Assembly: GCA_951406725.2 (NCBI GenBank)
Contig: OX597816.1
Location: 92,876,001 to 92,940,000 of the forward strand
Origin: Octopus vulgaris
Taxonomy: Eukaryota
Direction of reading: 5' to 3'
Length of the DNA: 64,000 nt
A program made the translations under genes and the position numbers. The notes beneath the pieces are model-generated. The model saw only the letters and a program-made list of their open reading frames with translations. It ran no database searches and was not told where the DNA came from. Of the stretch, positions 15,048-62,296 are shown piece by piece; position 1 is the first letter of the stretch; each line of letters starts with the position of its first letter.

Positions 15048-17147
<2,100 letters not shown>

Positions 17148-28957: not shown

Positions 28958-30380
28958 CCTTTTTCCACGGACTCCAAGCAATATCTACCATTCAACACAT
29001 GCCACCCCAGACACAGTAGAATGAATGTCTCTTCTGACCTGGCCAAAAGGATTTACTGTATGGTATCTGATACAAGCACCAGGAACACAACAACTACATG
29101 AGCTAAAGGATACACTCATCAGCAGGAACTGCCCACCATCACTATTTGATATTGGTTTTCAATGTGCCCTACAACTAAAAATCCATGAACTCAGACATCT
29201 CAAACTAAGGAATGAATTACAACTAAAAGCCCTAGCATACATATCCACACACAACCCCCTAAGCAATGAGGCCTTTGACACCATTCTCCAGAACGTTCTG
29301 TTACTAAAAAGGAACCATAGAATGAATCAAATTCTCCAAATGCACATCATCACAAAGAGCAAAAGACAGCTCAAGCCAATGGAAAGTATTCTAACACAAG
29401 CCCAAGTACACTCATCAACAACATCGAAACTGATAGTAAACAAATGTGTAAGACCTAACTGTGGTATATGGGTTTACTTAATTGAGGGATTGGAGTTCTT
29501 CAAACAGGGTCGTCAGAAAACCTGATATATGTGGTAACTTTCTCAGGGAGTCAAGAGTAATACATTGGTCAAACTAAAAACGGTCTATGCTAGAGGATGA
29601 CCATACATAGACCCCCAGATTAAAATACAGAAATACAGAAAAATAGCATTAAGTGAATACATTGACATTTGTGCTACTAATGAACAACCCAACTTTAGAA
29701 TGTTTCCCCTCTATAAATTTAGGGACAATGCAACCTATAATCAGTGCATTAGCAAAGAATCATGTTTTATCATGAAATATATGCTTCCACCACATATGAC
29801 ACTACTACAGGGATCTTAAAATAATACCCACAAAAATATTAAAAACAAAAGATATATTAAGAACAATCGCTATACATGAATTGATTTAGAACAATTCCTA
29901 CTAATACTGTTGCTACAACCACAACAGGTCACTTTGAGGCCACATGGCCATTAAAGTAGATTCTACAGACACCCTCTACTACTGGGTGATACCACTCCCA
30001 TCCTTTTCTTCTTCTTCTTCTTCTTCTTCTTCTTCTTCTTCTTCTTCTTCACCTTCTCTTTCTTTGGCTGCTGCTGTTTAAACCATCAAACTTCAGAACC
30101 AAATATATCTCTGCACCCATAAGAACAATTTTTCAGATCTGCTACTTCCTTAAGAGCCTTCACAAAGCAAAGGAGAGCATAACAGAAAAAACGAAAATGC
30201 CCTACCTATTTAAAGACTATGGAAATATTTACAAAATACTACATTTAAATTTTTCTTCAATCTAATTGTTTTTCTTCTCAGTTAATATCTACCTGTGTTT
30301 TACTTAGGTGAAAAAGTCAAAAAGACAGAAACCAGTATTTATTATTTTAGTATTTTCTACTTTTTCTTATTTTCCTTATA
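28958..30380 (+). mobile_element. Penelope-like element 3' portion (RT thumb/linker, GIY-YIG endonuclease, pLTR-like tail)
   Basis: Frames give CHPRHSRMNV, YISTHNP, KSKRQ, KCVRPNCGI, LIYVVT..G.QE*YIGQT and RMTIHR. A decayed HHR-like motif lies at 30308-30337. Confidence 0.8.
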
Positions 30381-44667: not shown

Positions 44668-46257
44668 CAGTTGCGGCCACAATGTTCAGAACGGCATTGT
44701 TTTCGTCAGAAAAGTAAGTATAAGTTTTTATCAAAGTAGTTTTATATTCTATAATTTTCACAAACAATAAATACAAGATTAATTGTTATTGTCTAAGATT
44801 TTGGTGTAATTTGAGAGGATAATACAAAAGTTATGGATGATCTAGTGATTTACTGCAAAACCTATGGCGGCCAAAATGACCAGAATGGTTGAAAAAATAA
44901 CAAAATAATCAAAAATGACAGAGAATACTGGAATTATTTAATATTTAGTGTGAAGCCCTTTAGCTTCAATCACACTCTGACATCTTCGACTGCATGAGGA
45001 AATTAAATTTTCAATTTCTTGCTGGGTGATTTTATTCCATTTTTCCTAAAGGGCATTCCATAATTGCTCAGTTGTTTTAGGATTTCTGGCTTTCGAACGT
45101 TCTCCTAGAATATTCCATACATTTTCAATAGGATTGAGATCTGGGCTTTGAGCAGGCCAATCCATAACAATTACCTTTTCAGCCTTGTGACATGGGGCAT
45201 TGTCCTGCATGAATATGGGTGGTCGCTTAGTTGAATTTCTCAGCACAGGCAAGACATGATCTATTACAAGTTGTTTATAAACTCCTGCATTTACCTTTCC
45301 ATGTAATCGCACCAAAGGGCCCACACCATCTCCAGATATCATTCCCCAAACCATGACACTTCCTCCACCGAATTTAACACTAGTCTTAAGGCATTTAGGC
45401 GACAACTTTTCACCTACTTTTCGACGAACGTACCTTTTCCCATCTGAGCCAAATAACATAAACTTAGATTCATCACTGAAATGCACCGTTTGCCATTTTT
45501 CTTGAGACCACAACACATGTTCAGTTGCAAAGGTAAGACAACACTTTTTATTCTTGGAGCTGATCAGTGGCTACACTGCAGGTGCTCTTGCTTGTAGGTC
45601 ATGTTCAACTAAATGACGAGACACAGTTTTTCGAGATAAAGTTTTCTTCAATACAATGCTCATTTTCCGAGAAACAGCAGCAGCAGTTTTAAATCTGTCC
45701 TTTTTAACCAACTTTACCATAGCACGATCTTCTCTCTTGGTCGTTTTTCTTGGCCTACCTGTAAACCTTCTTGCTTCACACGAACCACAATCATCGTAGA
45801 CCTTAAGAATACCGTGTACAACACCTTTTGACTTGTTAACAATCTTTGCAATAGATCCAATACTTAAATTATCCTTCCTTCGAAGCTTAATAATCTGCTG
45901 ACGGAGTAAGTGGCATTATATTAACAAAGTACACTGCAAATATTCTTACTAATGTTTAGTAAACGAACCGTCACGTAAACAAATTCAAAACATTAGAGTT
46001 CGCCGGTTAAATTACTAAAACACGGAGTAAAAGCAACCGTTCTGATCATTTTGGCCGCCATGGGTTTTGCAGTAAATCACTAAATCATCCATAACTTTTG
46101 TATTATCTTCTCAAATTACACCAAAATCTCAGGCAATAACAAATAATATCATATTTATTGCCTGTGAAAATTATAGAATATAAAACAACTTTCATAAAAA
46201 ATTATATCTACTTTTCTGACGAAAACAATGCCGTTCTGAACATTTTGGCCGCCACTG
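44668..46257 (-). mobile_element. Full-length Tc1-family transposon (1590 bp) with 224-bp IR-DR terminal repeats
   Basis: TA|cagttgcggccacaatgttcagaacgg ... ccgttctgaacattttggccgccactg|TA. TIRs at 44668-44891 and 46034-46257, each carrying outer and inner copies of gcggcca(a/c)aatg..cagaa(c/t)gg. Confidence 0.95.
44938..45914 (-). pseudogene. Tc1 transposase pseudogene
   Basis: HTH region with GRPRKTT, then FSDESKF, VMVWG, MQDNAPCH, WPAQSPDLNPIENVW and C-terminal AKGLHTKY*. In-frame stops near 45572 and 45046; D-E spacing is 25 rather than 34. Confidence 0.92.
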
Positions 46258-46289: not shown

Positions 46290-48180
46290 GTAAATACATT
46301 TCTTATATTTCACTAGTTTTAATTATTCTGACGAAGCATAAAATTCAAGTAAACACTTGATGTGTCATAAATAAAATCTACATTTTTAAAACTTTAAATG
46401 TCTTTGGGGACCATTTTCCTTTTTGATTGTGGTGTTCACTTATTCTTCAAACCCCATACGCAGCAAGTAAACTTAGCAGCTTCATCGATGTACCAGAATG
46501 AAGGGAGGTGTTTAGCATAATGTTTTTTGAAATCGCCTTCACATAGCCTGCTGTAATTTTTTTTTATTTCAGTTAGGTTATCTTGAAACGTTGCCGTGAC
46601 TACTGCCTCATATACAATGACATTTATCATACATACAGCTGTATGATATTTCAAACAAACATCTGTTGAAAATCTTTCTGTATTCATTATTTACTGGGAA
46701 ATGCTTATCTAAAAGAGACAGGAATTTTGTGTCTACGTTAGTTTTAATATTTAGAGAAAAAGTGAGGGCGGATCATATTATGATCCTAGGTCTATTTTCT
46801 GATGGTGATCCACATTTTTACTTTAAAGGTTGTAATGTACCTTTTCTTTGAAGCGGCTGTTAGCAAAAGCATTGTTATAGTAGGGGACTGCCTTATCGAA
46901 TATTTCTTTAGAAGATGTTAGCTATCAGGCTCCTAAGCACTATCATAGGTAGTAAGAGGACTGTTTGTGTATGTAGGAGAGTTTCTATTTTAGTTTATAG
47001 TATGATTTGTAAGAGTGGGAGTTTAGATCTAGGGAAACATATAAAAAATCGACTTTTGATAGATTAGTAGTAACAATGATTTTATGGCCTAATTAACTAA
47101 GGATGTCAATGAGTTCTTTCCTAAATTTATCGATAGTGTGACCATCGCAGCCATGAAATATTCCCAACCCATCTTCCTGGTGTATATCGATATCGTAGGG
47201 TGGGAATTCGGACATCAACGTATTTAATGTAAAGAAACTTACAAGATTACAGATGTTCACACTGTCATATGATCCCATTGATACATCGAACAATTCACCT
47301 GCATAAGATTTTTTAACCCCTACTAAGTCCTTACTAAATTGAAGTGTTTTTCTCACATGTATGATAAAGTCCAGCTCTATGTGGTCTATATTAACATATA
47401 TTTTCACGAACTCTGTTGCCTTATCAAGCAGCGATTTTGATATCGAGTGATAACAACTAGAATATCAAACTGTATAAATCTAGTCCTTTGCTTATCCTTG
47501 AAATTCTTCAACCAGTCGATTACAGTACTGCTATTATCCCATTGCTGTAGAATAGCAGAATCTCTAATTCTGATGTTAATATTCCTCAGGTTTTTTTTTT
47601 TTTTTCTTGTAGTGAACTGATTTCAATCCTCACAGTTATCAGTCTACAAGTGGGTTTATTACTGAAATTAGGTTTGTGATATTTCAGAGTGATGACAGCT
47701 CCTCTTTCTGCTAAGCTTTCTAATCTATCATCAATGTTATTACGTTTAAAGAGGAATTTAGCTTCATCATTAGTATCATTGTATCTATGTTAGCTTTCTT
47801 ATATTTAGTGTAAATAATGTCATTCAGTAACTTATCATATAGATCATTAGTGATTTCATACAGCTTGTTGGTCTGATAAAAAGTATGAACATCTTTTCAG
47901 AGCTTCTAAAGTTTCTAATATAAGATTTTAGCTTGAATTGAATTTACAGAATTGGTAACTAAATCAATGAGGTCTGCCCCAAAAGGGGTTAAATCTTTTA
48001 TCTTGAGAGGGTATTTAAGTGTCTTTTATTCATAACACTCTGAAGTAGTGGAAGATAGTATAGCATCAAAAACTAAGGCCATCCATCTCATCCATTTTAT
48101 GAGGTCAACTTTCTCAAGAAGCATCCTGTGGATAGGTATTTTGGTGGTGCATGTATATTCTTAGCAGAGTAATCCATGTG
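46290..48180 (-). mobile_element. Penelope-like retroelement, degenerate RT plus C-terminal GIY-YIG ORF
   Basis: N-terminal MDYSAKNI...LIKWMRW; RT FDVSMGSYDSVNICNLV..., DIHQEDGL (about GLYRDDGL); endonuclease region VIVYEAVV...KNYSRLCEGDFKKHYAKH. Confidence 0.85.
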
Positions 48181-48800
48181 GTATAAATCGATAATAGTGT
48201 GCGAATTGGTGGAATCCTTAGAGTCACTCAACTTAACATAGCAATAATGCCAAACATGTATATAATAAATTTGCAGTAGAAAACAATGTGTTAGAGGTAT
48301 ATAGTTTACTGTTCTGTTAAGGTATGATCAAGAAAAATAGTACTCAATTCAGTAAGTGATAAATACAGTATAAAAATATGAGTTGCTAATAGCTTCTTGC
48401 TTTGGAGACAAGGGCTAAGGCAGGTTTTTATAATATGCCTTATGTTTGTAAGCAATATTCTGGCCTAGTTGCTGTAGAATAATTCAACGGGTGGGGTCCA
48501 AGGTCTGCGAGACAGCTGCTCAATTCAGAAAGGGTGTTGTCCTCCACTTTGCCAAAAGAAATTTGTCCATGTGCTTGCATTTACTGAAAATTTTGGATCT
48601 GGAATTCAAGATAACCCGATCAAAAGGAAAAATTACATCGGGTTATGTGAAGGTAATTTCAAAAGATGTTATGCAAACCACCTATCTTCTTTCTGGCACA
48701 TAAACAAAGCGACTAAGTTTTCTAGCCCCGTGTGGGGGCTGGAAGATCAACTGCACACCACATACAATCAAGCAGAGAATTGTAAAGAAATATTTTCATA
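48181..48800. mobile_element. Upstream pseudo-LTR (minus, ~48600-48181) and inverted 5' segment (plus, ~48607-48800) of the PLE
   Basis: Minus 48600-48525 encodes an ORF end, SKIFSKCKHMDKFLLAK. Plus 48607-48800 encodes KNYIGLCEGNFKRCYANH, homologous to 46436-46590 in the opposite orientation. Confidence 0.7.
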
Positions 48801-55739: not shown

Positions 55740-57966
55740 GCTCCTTCATTGGAATTTCAACATCAACAACAGGGTGTTTTTTGTATGTATGTATGTATGT
55801 ATGTATGTATGTATGTATGTATGTATGTATGTATGTATGTATGTATGTGTGTAAACGGGCTAACTTGATGATGTGTGTGTGCGCGAGAATAATGTAAAAA
55901 TAATCATTGAAGAACTTACACGTAGGTGAATGAGTAATGCATAGAAATGTTTCTCTAAAAAATTCGCTGAACGATTGATGTAACACTTTTCTGAAGTTTA
56001 GTAGTCTATAAAAAAAAGTCAAATATGATAAATGACATCATAATAGAAAAGAAAGGACGTCAGAGAAAAAGAGAATGTAGAGGAGAAATCGGTGGAAAGA
56101 AACTGGTGCATATAGGAAGAATCGATGTAAGAGTTATGACGTCAAAAGCCTATACAAATTTGTCCGCAATATACTTTTATGACATGACCCGTCACAATTT
56201 GCGTTTATGACCGATTGGATGTGATGAATAAATAGATGGAAAATAGAATAACCACACAGAGCTTTGAGAGAGCGGTATTCAATATCACTGGTATATGTTG
56301 CTTGATGCTTGTGATATCTGTAAGTGATAGAATAATGATTTTTCTTAGTTTTCCAATTTAATAACTGCTTTACAATGGTCTGTGGAAATATTTGATTTGT
56401 GGACAGTATTGATCTATGGTCAATATACTTTATTTCCATGCATGGACAGTGTAGAGTCAGAATTAAGCTCCCTGCGAACTAAGATTGCGTTGCAATTTCT
56501 CTTACATCATTAAAGCGCTTTAAAAGATTTATATCAAAACATTCCGACTGCAATTTTATTGCTTGTAAAATTAAGAATGTTTCAGATTTCAACGTCTCGG
56601 TTCCGATCTGTGTTCTATAATCTTATTTTGTTTCCAACAGTTTGTTCCAACTCATTCAAATGTGACTTTTTCCACTCAAAAACAATAAACATGTAACTAC
56701 TCCATTTCAACACTTTATCTTTATTACATGCGTTATTTTAACTGATCAGGAACTGCCATTATTTGATGGTTCCACGGTAAGATGAATGCATTTCGGCAGC
56801 TCTGCGGCTCAGCAGCATTTTAGATTTTACTGATCACCTGGCTCAACCATGTGGACATAGTAGAAAACTTGTAAGAAATATTATCTAAGTCAAGGTTTTT
56901 TTCGTACCAGTATTTTTACTGACATTCGGTTTTCAGCAATCTGTCTTTTAGAAAGGTCCGTGAGGTTTCGCATCGAAATAAAGATTGTCATCAAGTTGGC
57001 TAACTTCACATCGGACTACCTGATAGAAAAATAATTCTCTCCTTTTCTCTGAAACTCACTAATCTGTTTAACAACCATGTTCTCACTCATGGAACATAGC
57101 ACCTGATAGAGACTGAAATGAATACAGTCTCACGAAAACAGGCATATATTCACATACATACGGAATGAGAAACAGGCATATACTCACATATACACGGAAT
57201 GAGAACTATGTTCTTACTCAAACGTCAAATCATCGACTAGAGACAGCAAAGAACACGCTCCTTGACATATATAAAAGAAGATGCTCTACATACACAGATA
57301 TGTATCGTGTCTGTCACTCACACACTATGTAAAAGACATTCTCGTACACAGACAACATAAAAAATCATTTTGATTCTTATCATATGCCTAAAATGTTGTC
57401 AACACACAAAAACAAAACGCAGAAATAATTTGGGTTGGGTTTGTATCACAAATTTGAAATGGTGTCTGTTTCATGTCCATTCTTTCATGAACAGTAGCAG
57501 TACTGATCTCAGTATAGTATTGAGGACGGTGTATGTCGACATAATTTAAGCGAACTTTTCACCATTTCATTCACTGCAGTCATTTTATCTTGTATGGTTT
57601 CCGTCATGATTTTAATCTTCATTAAGTATTTATTACAATTAAAGATGTTCAAAATTATGTTGCCTTATACTCAAGAGTATTCTGTATTCTTCTTACCGTT
57701 ACAAACAAACAATATTATGGAGGTCAGAGCATCTGAAGTGGAGACTGAAATAGGTTACCATGTTACTGAATAGAAGCACTTTAAAAGGAAAACAGATTCC
57801 TTAAGCTAAGATTTAGAGCAAAAGTGATATCCTGAAAATCTCTTACTGAGTTCTGTATATGAAACTATGCAGTGCAACTATCTAGTGGCACACATATATA
57901 TTCACAAGTATTCGTACGTACATACATACATACATATTGTTTGTGTGTATATATATATATATAATA

Positions 57967-58212
57967 TTAAATTAGAGATAAAACCACTATTAGGCAAATC
58001 ATACAATGAAAAACTTAAGCCAATACATAAGATTAATTAATTTTATTATTTTAGATATATATCAAAATTATTAAAAAACGATAATTGATATTAATTATCT
58101 TTTTTTAATGATTTTGATATATATTTAAAATAATATAAATTAATTAATCTTATGTATTGGCTTAAGTTTTTCATTGTATGATTTGCCTAATAGTGGTTTT
58201 ATCTCTAATTTA
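57967..58212. repeat. Near-perfect 246-bp palindrome (123-bp arms, no spacer)
   Basis: ttaaattagagataaaaccactattaggcaaatcatac... mirrors ...gtatgatttgcctaatagtggttttatctctaatttaa, centred at 58089/58090. Confidence 0.92.
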
Positions 58213-58489
58213 ACATAATATAATATTTTACTATAAAATTGGATTCAATCCTAAATCTGATTTTTCCCTGTAAGTTTGGATTTATTCCCTAATATTTTAT
58301 TATTATATATATATATATGCATCTATCTACCTATCACTCTCTCTGTCTCTCTCTCCCCCTCTCTCTGTATACATAAATATATATTCTATTGTGTCTGGGG
58401 AGAGTCATTTTCTTTTTGTACCTTATAATTTAACATACTCACCGGTAAAATTTCCACTTATTTAAAGTAAGAAATAAGTGGGAATTTTA

Positions 58490-58609: not shown

Positions 58610-58762
58610 GTATGTACGTACGTATATACACAACGGATTCATTCGGTTTCCGCCAACCACATCCACTTCCAAGGCTTTGGTTGACCCGAGGCTGAAGTAG
58701 AAGGCACTTGCATAAGGCGCTACACAGTGGAACTGAATCCTGTGGTTGGGAAGCTAGCTTCT
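58490..58762 (-). mobile_element. CORE-like SINE fragment
   Basis: ggttgtcaagcggtgg...ttcggtttccg...aaggctttggttgacccgaggct...gtggttgggaagc. Confidence 0.7.
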
Positions 58763-58787
58763 TGTAGAAATTGCCTGCTATAGGTAG

Positions 58788-58829
58788 TGTAGTGATCCTA
58801 TACGCGCGCTGTTGTATAGGATCACTACA
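58788..58829. mobile_element. 42-bp palindromic mini-insertion, TGT...ACA ends, 4-bp TSD GTAG
   Basis: tgtagtgatcctatac-gcgcgctgtt-gtataggatcactaca; absent from the sister repeat at 59271. Confidence 0.8.
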
Positions 58830-59110
58830 GTAGTTTCTCTTTGTGTTTAAATGTACAGTATTTTATATTGAATAATATGTCGTCTATTGACTTTTTATAC
58901 ATGCTAGGCCACTGGTAGGGAAATTTATAAAAAATTACTACCCTATATAGATATCTAAGTATCAATATTAGCTTTCAAAGTTCATTTCGGAATTTTTCAT
59001 TTTCTGCCGACTGAAACTGCGCTTGTATGGTGGATTTTGAAAAGATCATAATAGATAAAGATGAGACACGTGCTATTGGTCTCATAATTATAGGTTAGTC
59101 TTGGATGGCT

Positions 59111-59184
59111 CGGTTACTGAAGAGAATTTGCCTAGTAAATTATCTTATTTACTAAAAAAATTCCGAAACCTATAGGTATAACCG
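59111..59184 (+). ncRNA. Type I hammerhead ribozyme (intact core)
   Basis: Stem I cggtta/taaccg; CTGAAGA; long stem II gaattt..tagtaaat/atttacta..aaattc; c-GAAA; palindromic stem III acctataggt; GUA site after 59178. Confidence 0.85.
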
Positions 59185-59338
59185 TAAAAACAAGGTAAAG
59201 GTTTTTATTTTTTCATTCTCTTTGATTAAATTTTTTGTGGTTTTCAGTCGTTTTGACTGTCTCCTAGCGTGTAGAAATTGCCTGTTATAGATAATTTCTC
59301 TTTATGTTTAAATGTACACTATTTTATATTTACTACCA

Positions 59339-59374
<36 letters not shown>

Positions 59375-59509
59375 TGTATGTATGTATGTATGTATGTATG
59401 TATGTATGTATGTATGTATGTATATCACTGTTTCGGCCAGATAAGCGTATGTGTCGCTACTGTTAGCCACAGCGCGCTTCTTTGCATTGTTTTTGCTTTC
59501 GAATGATAC

Positions 59510-61835: not shown

Positions 61836-62296
61836 ACACAAAATTAATATAAACATCAGGTTGCAATGTTTCACTAAACAGGAGAATTATAACTGTCACT
61901 AAATGTGGCTAGGGTGTTAGAAAAACCCACCTACATTTCTAGAAATAAGAGCTGAAATGCTCCAATGCTGTTGTTAACGCACATGAATGAAAACATATAC
62001 ACTAACAGGGACCGTAATTGTCCGAAAAATGCCAACCGAGAATTCTTCAGACTGACACATCTGTTTCGGCAATTTCCTTTACCATCATCAGTAAAGCCAG
62101 CTCGGTGTTCGGCTGTTTCCGGACCTGCTTCTCTATTAGTATATATGTCTTCGTTATCCAACTTAATAGATGATTTAGTGATTTGCTAATATGTATACAC
62201 AAAATTAATATAAATAGCAGGCTGCAATGTTTCACCAAAAAGGAGAATTATAAGTGTCACTAAATGTGACTAAGGTGTTAAAAAGCACCTACATTG
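61836..62296 (-). mobile_element. Direct-repeat-bounded short element (361-bp period) carrying a hammerhead ribozyme
   Basis: A ~100-bp repeat acacaaaattaatataaa...cacctacatt at about 61836 and 62197, adjacent to (CA)n. Confidence 0.75.
62050..62098 (-). ncRNA. Type I hammerhead ribozyme (intact core, weak stem I)
   Basis: Minus strand: ggcttta-CTGATGA-t-ggtaa-aggaaa-ttgcc-GAAA-ca-gatg-tg-TC-agtc; GUC site at 62054. Confidence 0.7.

What the first reader, a model, noticed from the sequence alone, without database searches (positions are those of the whole stretch)
58764..59333. Best ribozyme candidate: complete HHR inside a ~461-bp unit with terminal redundancy
It has a perfect 6-bp stem I, an exact core, an unusually long two-part stem II and a 10-nt palindromic stem III with a GUA site. 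The unit is bounded by ~60-bp direct repeats, i.e. slightly more than one monomer in permuted form. That is what reverse transcription around a circular or tandem RNA would leave (inference). No ORF is present.
Basis: partly seen in the sequence, partly recalled or inferred. Interest (0 to 1): 0.78.

Follow-up and report, generated by a model that had tools for sequence, protein, structure and literature searches.

The report
Ribozyme-carrying Penelope-type mini-retroelement
This is an old copy of a protein-less 461-base repeat that carries a hammerhead ribozyme motif, and most of the family's longer-than-unit copies begin just after the predicted cut site, which suggests they were likely copied from self-cut linear RNA rather than from an RNA circle.

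Summary
The hammerhead motif is real and its stems covary across the family. The window holds one decayed copy, about 1.15 units long, of an ORF-less 461-bp repeat (761 exact hits to a 20-mer from its tail). The copies look like Penelope-like (PLE) insertions: two fixed 3' end zones, (TA)n targets, ragged 5' ends and frequent inverted 5' arms.

The 5' repeat is split by a 46-nt insert. This copy has an extra C before G12. Upstream sequence is predicted to block the ribozyme fold.

The new point is where long copies start: 47 of 51 longer-than-unit copies begin downstream of the upstream ribozyme's cut site. Only 4 of 18 that approach that site pass it, against 42 of 60 at the downstream ribozyme (P=7e-4). 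A sister lineage shows the same wall.

This fits a linear template trimmed at its 5' end by the ribozyme and argues against plain rolling around a circle. A transcription start at the same place is not excluded. Cleavage was not tested and no autonomous partner was found. It is a new member of a known kind (non-LTR retrozyme / non-autonomous PLE).

The parts
58626..58762 (+). Flank: common SINE-like repeat (label recalled), cut off at the element's 5' junction; no target-site duplication seen
   Evidence: 60 blastn hits among fetched loci; the 9 other copies printed continue with a different sequence at this point
58763..58787 (+). 5' remnant of the upstream unit (m441-461) plus the first 4 nt of the unit; first part of the terminal redundancy
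   Evidence: 22/24 identical to 59270-59293
58788..58829 (.). 42-nt hairpin insert flanked by a 4-nt duplication (46 nt in all); matches the first 16 nt of an LTR-like end plus the inverted first 26 nt of the same end; foreign to the family
   Evidence: Its centre is unique in the genome at up to 2 mismatches; the 16-mer has 134 exact hits, often as direct pairs 2-5 kb apart
58830..59290 (+). One full 461-nt unit (m1-461, where m = position - 58829), ORF-less
59088..59096 (+). Predicted competing helix that pairs with about 59167-59175 and blocks the hammerhead fold
   Evidence: Pair probability 0.99 when 59075-59200 is folded; prediction only
59099..59195 (+). Type I hammerhead: distal helix I 59099-59103:59191-59195, stem I 59111-59116:59179-59184, core 59117-59123, two-part helix II 59124-59163, extra C 59164, GAAA 59165-59168, palindromic helix III 59168-59177
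   Evidence: compensatory pairs among 102 family hammerhead regions
59178..59179 (+). Predicted cut site (m349/350); the position at which 5' ends of long copies stop
59291..59330 (+). 3' tail: m1-39 of the next unit, ending in the family's commonest 3' end zone (inferred reverse-transcription start)
   Evidence: 65 arms end at m39 and 122 of 241 in m30-58
59331..59423 (+). 3' flank: a few bases resembling the second end zone, then (AT)n and (GTAT)n microsatellite target
   Evidence: microsatellite-like 3' flanks in 91 of 110 and 60 of 82 arms of the two end zones

Best explanation
This is a decayed copy of an ORF-less 461-bp repeat with a conserved hammerhead motif, likely spread by a Penelope-like (PLE) reverse transcriptase copying a linear RNA whose 5' end was likely set by ribozyme cleavage. 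Shown: the family, the covarying hammerhead fold, two fixed 3' end zones, (TA)n targets, inverted 5' arms, and 5' ends of long copies that stop at the upstream cut site. Inferred: a tandem source is transcribed and cut at its upstream hammerhead, while the downstream one mostly stays uncut (a competing helix is predicted). A PLE RT/GIY-YIG protein, probably Neptune-type, nicks (TA)n DNA, starts inside the RNA at about m39 or m120-133 and copies toward the cut end, giving at most one unit plus 150-245 nt. Unequal exchange between the redundant ends would rebuild two-ribozyme sources. The window copy stopped about 20 nt into the upstream unit and later gained the hairpin insert.
For: PLE anatomy: 209 of 241 junction-crossing arms end in two zones, and 77 head-to-head pairs occur among 272 arms. 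Microsatellite flanks in 91 of 110 and 60 of 82 arms. This matches PLE tails, partial tandems and inversions in PMC8557442 and the two internal RT start sites in PMC11167929. Covariation in 102 regions: 59115:59180 T-A 74 / C-G 15; 59125:59163 A-T 51 / G-C 36; 59136:59151 C-G 54 / T-A 24; helix III is a palindrome in three different versions. Wall: 47 of 51 longer-than-unit arms start at m356-457; 4 of 18 pass the upstream site against 42 of 60 at the downstream site (Fisher 7e-4; binomial 1e-4). One search ranked by coverage of a near-dimer, so it favoured finding passers. In the tail-anchored sample, 10 of 52 arms start in m350-360 against 3.3 expected (P=0.0015; 0.012 after allowing for an alignment artefact). 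L283 and L189 start at m350, and L333 of the sister lineage starts on the first base after its cut. Sister lineage: 4 of 10 pass (P=0.005). Drop-off does not rise after one full unit but rises at m381-461 of the upstream unit for both tail classes. An intact PLE ORF (784 aa, RVT_1 above cut-off, GIY-YIG just below it) is present in many near-identical copies.
Against: No cleavage was measured. Only 2 main-family arms start exactly at m350; most start 6-25 nt inside, in an A-rich stretch where my aligner over-calls starts 1.25-1.36-fold. A subfamily whose stem I looks broken (4 copies seen) also has its 2 long arms starting at m358 and m366. 4 of 18 arms do pass, and only 2 of 6 passers examined share a ribozyme lesion in both units (L254, L307), which is anecdotal. 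No intact array with two working ribozymes was found among the 40 candidates scored, so the source loci are inferred. No autonomous element with this terminal repeat was found. Why the two ribozymes differ in pass rate is not explained independently. In PMC11167929 uncut RNA was the dominant template in vitro. The long-arm set is pooled from several ranked searches.
Confidence: 0.58

Rival explanations
1. Same non-autonomous PLE, but the wall is a transcription start site (internal pLTR promoter) at about m350-356, or a source boundary inherited from one early event. The ribozyme plays no part in each round.
For: PLE pLTRs hold the start site and a 5' intron (PMC8557442). A donor-like AG|GTAATT or AG|GTAGTT sits at m461/m1 in 111 of the matched junctions. 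A start site in each unit explains a partial first wall and a hard second wall. The weak-stem-I subfamily also shows the wall (2 of 2).
Against: It needs the start site to coincide with the cut site in two lineages about 65% alike, with base-exact starts (L283, L189, L333). The ribozyme fold is kept by compensatory change. Redundant parts diverge 9.7%, about as much as sister copies, so they were alike at insertion in each subfamily.
Confidence: 0.17
2. Nicked-circle jump: the template is a cut-to-cut linear monomer whose ends are held together by stem I. The RT jumps the nick once, copies a full unit, and stops at the 5' end the second time.
For: Predicts a partial first wall, a hard second wall, a maximum of one unit plus 150-245 nt, and identical redundant parts.
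Against: Junctions at the cut site look clean in the displayed alignment rows, with no added bases seen. It still needs two-ribozyme precursors, and cannot give the passers without other templates.
Confidence: 0.13
3. Classical retrozyme cycle: a covalently closed 461-nt circle is reverse-transcribed more than once around (first reader; model of PMC4209133 and PMC7229834).
For: Perfect head-to-tail junctions; redundancy alike at insertion; 4 of 6 passers share 1-6 private changes between their units; circles are shown for mussel, coral and axolotl retrozymes.
Against: A circle offers the same junction on both passes, yet pass rates are 42 of 60 and 4 of 18. There is no rise in drop-off at one unit length. 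L254 has a dead-looking core in both units, so it could not have cut itself in cis.
Confidence: 0.09
4. The ends reflect RT stalling and fold-back at the ribozyme's helices and the A-run/T-run at m356-385, with no cleavage.
For: Many head-to-head pairs start at m351-373; the aligner artefact lies here too.
Against: The same structure should stall equally at both units. Few arms stop inside the stronger helix II region (4 of 41 in m310-349 in the tail-anchored sample, one of them really at m350).
Confidence: 0.03

Closest known systems
Metazoan non-LTR retrozymes (PMC7229834; bioRxiv 10.64898/2026.07.22.740005)
   Same: ORF-less, low-GC unit of a few hundred bp with a type I hammerhead and a palindromic helix III; co-occurs with PLEs; proposed to be PLE-mobilised.
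   Different: Here the copies are dispersed pieces of under two units with PLE tails and inversions; no array of two or more intact units was found among the candidates scored. Helix II is long and two-part. The 5' ends argue against a circle template. RNA circles were not tested.
EN+ Penelope-like elements, pLTR and tail (PMC8557442; PAc in PMC11167929; hammerheads in PMC4209133)
   Same: Partial tandems, inverted 5' arms, two 3' end zones, AT-rich targets, hammerhead upstream of the RT start sites.
   Different: No ORF; tail zones are about 80-95 nt apart against 30-40 nt; no autonomous element with this repeat was found; genomic 5' ends stop at the cut site, whereas PAc RNA-seq showed no ends there.
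Non-autonomous Chlamys elements such as MRC1 (passage in PMC8557442)
   Same: ORF-less PLE derivatives that form pLTR-like partial tandems.
   Different: Those generally lack canonical hammerheads and resemble their autonomous partner at the 3' end.

Membership tests
Type I hammerhead ribozyme | Core CUGAnGA, GAAA and UH with three helices | tested here: met
   one extra C before G12 in this copy, and an extra A at the same place is the norm in the sister lineage
Type I hammerhead ribozyme | Compensatory changes in the stems | tested here: met
   102 regions; counts are of sequences, not independent events
Type I hammerhead ribozyme | Match to an Rfam hammerhead model at gathering score | tested here: not met
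   none for the window; relative L003 scores 27.4 bits to Hammerhead_3, cut-off 48.5
Type I hammerhead ribozyme | Self-cleavage | not testable with these tools
   indirect only: 5' ends at the site
Non-autonomous Penelope-like element | Partial tandem (pLTR-like) structure, 5' truncation, inverted 5' arm | tested here: met
Non-autonomous Penelope-like element | Two alternative 3' ends (tail) and AT-rich or microsatellite targets | tested here: met
Non-autonomous Penelope-like element | Sequence shared with the terminal repeat of an autonomous PLE | tested here: inconclusive
   none in 66 loci from the PLE-protein search and its follow-ups (the hits there were the ORF-less sister lineage); PLE fragments near family copies were not joined to them where inspected; only one PLE protein query was used
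Non-LTR retrozyme | ORF-less unit with a type I hammerhead | tested here: met
Non-LTR retrozyme | Tandem array with at least two complete hammerheads (the 'active' criterion of the 2026 preprint) | tested here: inconclusive
   not met at this locus; a few copies hold two hammerheads (L030, L254, L278; L300, L307, L310 in the sister lineage); no long array among 40 scored candidates
Non-LTR retrozyme | Monomeric linear and circular RNA in cells | not testable with these tools
   only assembled contigs were available

The most novel reading that the evidence does not exclude
This lineage preserves a genomic footprint showing that a PLE-type hammerhead cuts in vivo and sets the 5' end of the retrotransposition template, capping copies at one unit plus tail. 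More-than-unit retrozyme and PLE copies would then come from ribozyme-trimmed linear (or once-jumped nicked) RNA rather than rolling round a circle, and the same end-mapping test can be run on any genome.
Probability: 0.5. Interest if true: 0.75.

Novelty: new member of a known kind. Interest (0 to 1): 0.56.

Why it matters
The role of hammerheads in EN+ PLEs is called unclear in PMC8557442, cleavage was dispensable in vitro in PMC11167929, and the circle-template model for retrozymes is stated as a hypothesis in PMC4209133 and PMC7229834. A short ORF-less unit lets single insertions cross the same ribozyme twice, so their ends test these models directly, and here they stop at the cut site in two lineages. 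The single copy in the window is ordinary and decayed; the value lies in the family statistics.

Tried and rejected
Autonomous partner: L011/L021 looked like repeat-internal-repeat but are a local duplication of flanking sequence with no ORF. The abundant 784-aa PLE has its own terminal repeat with no similarity to this unit. The sister-lineage copy in L054 is an insertion into a PLE 3' UTR, not its repeat.

Expression: no RNA holder listed. Contigs of guessed-RNA runs hold diverged family copies, none spanning this copy. Three contigs align from 59180 but look like one paralog (same 10 differences and 8 gaps), so I do not use them.

Earlier scan findings: nothing.

Print searches with no hit. 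Searches listed no paper whose title or abstract start describes this family; their texts and supplements were not read for it, and Repbase/Dfam could not be checked.

Corrections made before the final counts: L278 added as a passer by hand (broken by a microsatellite); L024, L184, L175 and L334 re-scored as passers after hidden deletions or insertions were found; L189 moved to m350. The earlier figures 2 of 16 and 3 of 17 are superseded. In the sister lineage I counted 20 arms by hand and left out short or tangled pieces (L302, L323, part of L326) and arms with no upstream unit.

Shared ribozyme lesions in passers are not significant on these numbers. The competing-helix prediction (stem I probability at most 0.15 in 18 of 26 copies with 45 nt upstream, at least 0.9 in 18 of 26 with 20 nt) had no shuffle control.

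A second descriptor hit on the minus strand at 62091 has no helix II and was rejected.

Full report
Coordinates. m = window position - 58829, so one unit m1-461 is 58830-59290 and the predicted cut lies at m349/350. The window lies in a 2.8-Gb genome with 227 contigs. That it is an animal, probably a cephalopod, is my recall from its repeat landscape and was not tested.

Observation. A strict descriptor found 1 hit in the window and 0 in 150 simulated windows. Rfam has no hammerhead match for this copy; the intact relative L003 reaches 27.4 bits with Hammerhead_3, below the 48.5 cut-off. Three details differ from the finding. An extra C (59164) sits before G12; 21 of 102 family regions are fully canonical and this copy is not among them, although the younger sister lineage normally has an extra A there, so the extra base may be tolerated. 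The 5' repeat is split by a 46-nt insert derived from an LTR-like end. A helix from 59088-59096 is predicted to out-compete the ribozyme fold in longer RNA.

Family. A DNA search gave 92 matches from 40 scored of 2352 candidates, the best other copy 91% identical. A 20-mer from the tail has 761 exact hits and 0 for the reversed control. I mapped 272 arms from fetched loci with a profile; they come from ranked searches and from the first 100 of the 761 hits (99 distinct arms, the least biased sample). Several subfamilies differ by about 20%. A sister lineage about 65% alike (E 7.5e-19) has the same ORF-less unit, its own hammerhead and copies 87-95% identical. Stems covary: 59115:59180 T-A 74 / C-G 15, 59125:59163 A-T 51 / G-C 36, 59136:59151 C-G 54 / T-A 24. 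Helix III stays palindromic in an 8-nt version (18 regions), the 10-nt version (13 regions) and a third version. These are counts of related sequences, not of events.

Insertion anatomy. Of 241 arms that cross the unit junction, 122 end at m30-58 (65 at m39) and 87 at m109-141; flanking TA repeats blur the second zone. Microsatellite-like sequence follows in 91 of 110 and 60 of 82 arms. There are 77 head-to-head pairs. These are the PLE features described in PMC8557442 (passages), and PMC11167929 (main text, parts 1-2 of 4) shows that such tails mark two internal RT start sites. The genome holds a PLE with a 417-aa frame and a 784-aa RT/GIY-YIG frame in many near-identical copies. Its CX4CX2C linker fits Neptune or Nematis by the description; no tree was built. 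Its terminal repeat is unrelated to this unit, so the mobilising enzyme is inferred, not identified.

Where 5' ends fall. In the tail-anchored sample 10 of 52 arms at risk start in m350-360 against 3.3 expected (P=0.0015). Simulated truncations show my aligner over-calls this A-rich window 1.25-1.36-fold, which leaves P=0.012. A second sample of 43 arms had 4 of 22 in that window (P=0.07) and 12 of 34 in m361-380. Most arms pass this downstream ribozyme: 42 of 60. Among 51 longer-than-unit arms, 47 start at m356-457 of the upstream unit, and only 4 of the 18 that reach m380 pass its cut site (Fisher P=7e-4; binomial P=1e-4 using the steeper drop-off just downstream). One passer is the query, a search that favoured long copies. 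L283 and L189 start at m350, L151 and L119 at m351. In the sister lineage 4 of 10 pass (P=0.005) and L333 starts on the first base after the cut. Drop-off stays at 0.002-0.005 per base after one full unit and rises to 0.014-0.018 only in m381-461 of the upstream unit, for both tail classes (pooled, length-biased set).

Mechanism. A closed circle shows the RT the same junction twice and should change behaviour at one unit length; neither is seen. A linear RNA that begins at a cut site and holds one uncut ribozyme explains the cap. Against this, exact-cut starts are few, a subfamily with a broken-looking stem I shows the wall in its 2 long arms, no intact two-ribozyme source was found among 40 scored candidates, and only 2 of 6 passers examined share a ribozyme lesion in both units. 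A start site at the same place and a single jump across a nicked monomer remain open. Redundant parts differ by 9.7% pooled over 58 arms, about as much as sister copies, so some step re-creates the redundancy in each subfamily; I infer unequal exchange between the redundant ends.

Comparison. It works like a non-autonomous PLE and meets the ORF-less type I hammerhead part of the non-LTR retrozyme definition. Arrays and RNA circles are unshown. The link between animal retrozymes and PLEs is already in print: PMC7229834 (passages and Discussion), PMC4209133 (parts 1-2 of 4) and the 2026 preprint (parts 1-3 of 5; its supplements were not seen). I saw no report of this family or of 5' ends stopping at a PLE hammerhead site in the listings, which cover open-access text only; repeat libraries were not available and may already hold the element unlabelled.

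Verdict. A real ribozyme motif in an old, probably inactive copy of a new member of a known kind. Interest 0.56, carried by the end-mapping evidence on an open mechanistic question.

Noticed in passing
window 58788-58829: Hairpin made of two inverted copies of the same LTR-like end with a 4-nt duplication and no internal sequence; looks like an aberrant integration product. The end motif has 134 exact hits.
   Followed up: partly
L082:4580-5040 and L297-L336: Younger sister lineage of the same ORF-less unit, with an extra A before G12 as its norm, its own two 3' end zones and the same 5' wall.
   Followed up: partly
L077:5668-9209 and following 3' region: Apparently recently active PLE: 417-aa frame overlapping a 784-aa RT/GIY-YIG frame, many near-identical copies, with a hammerhead-like motif carrying the U3-A8 core variant described in PMC4209133.
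   Followed up: partly
window 29025-29522 (+), 47096-47464 (-), 48478-48798 (+), 46439-46627 (-): Decayed PLE protein fragments; the first is 67-72% identical to PLE copies elsewhere; the others look Naiad-like by recalled motifs.
   Followed up: partly
window 45046-45915 (-): Tc1/mariner-like transposase remnants (label recalled).
   Followed up: no
L070 near 798 (+): Another type I hammerhead-like motif with a long helix II in a different repeat upstream of a PLE fragment.
   Followed up: no
L084, L085, L087, L094 near 1500-1850: A roughly 330-bp repeat with inverted arms, flanked by (TA)n, that shares the m408-440 motif with this family.
   Followed up: no
window 59290/59291 (m461/m1): Splice-donor-like motif kept in most junctions matched; PLEs often have a 5' intron. 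Splicing was not shown.
   Followed up: no
window 57958-58222: Near-perfect 265-bp AT-rich palindrome, MITE-like.
   Followed up: no
window 16176-16719: 3.4 copies of a 159-bp tandem unit at 99% identity next to long (TA)n runs.
   Followed up: no
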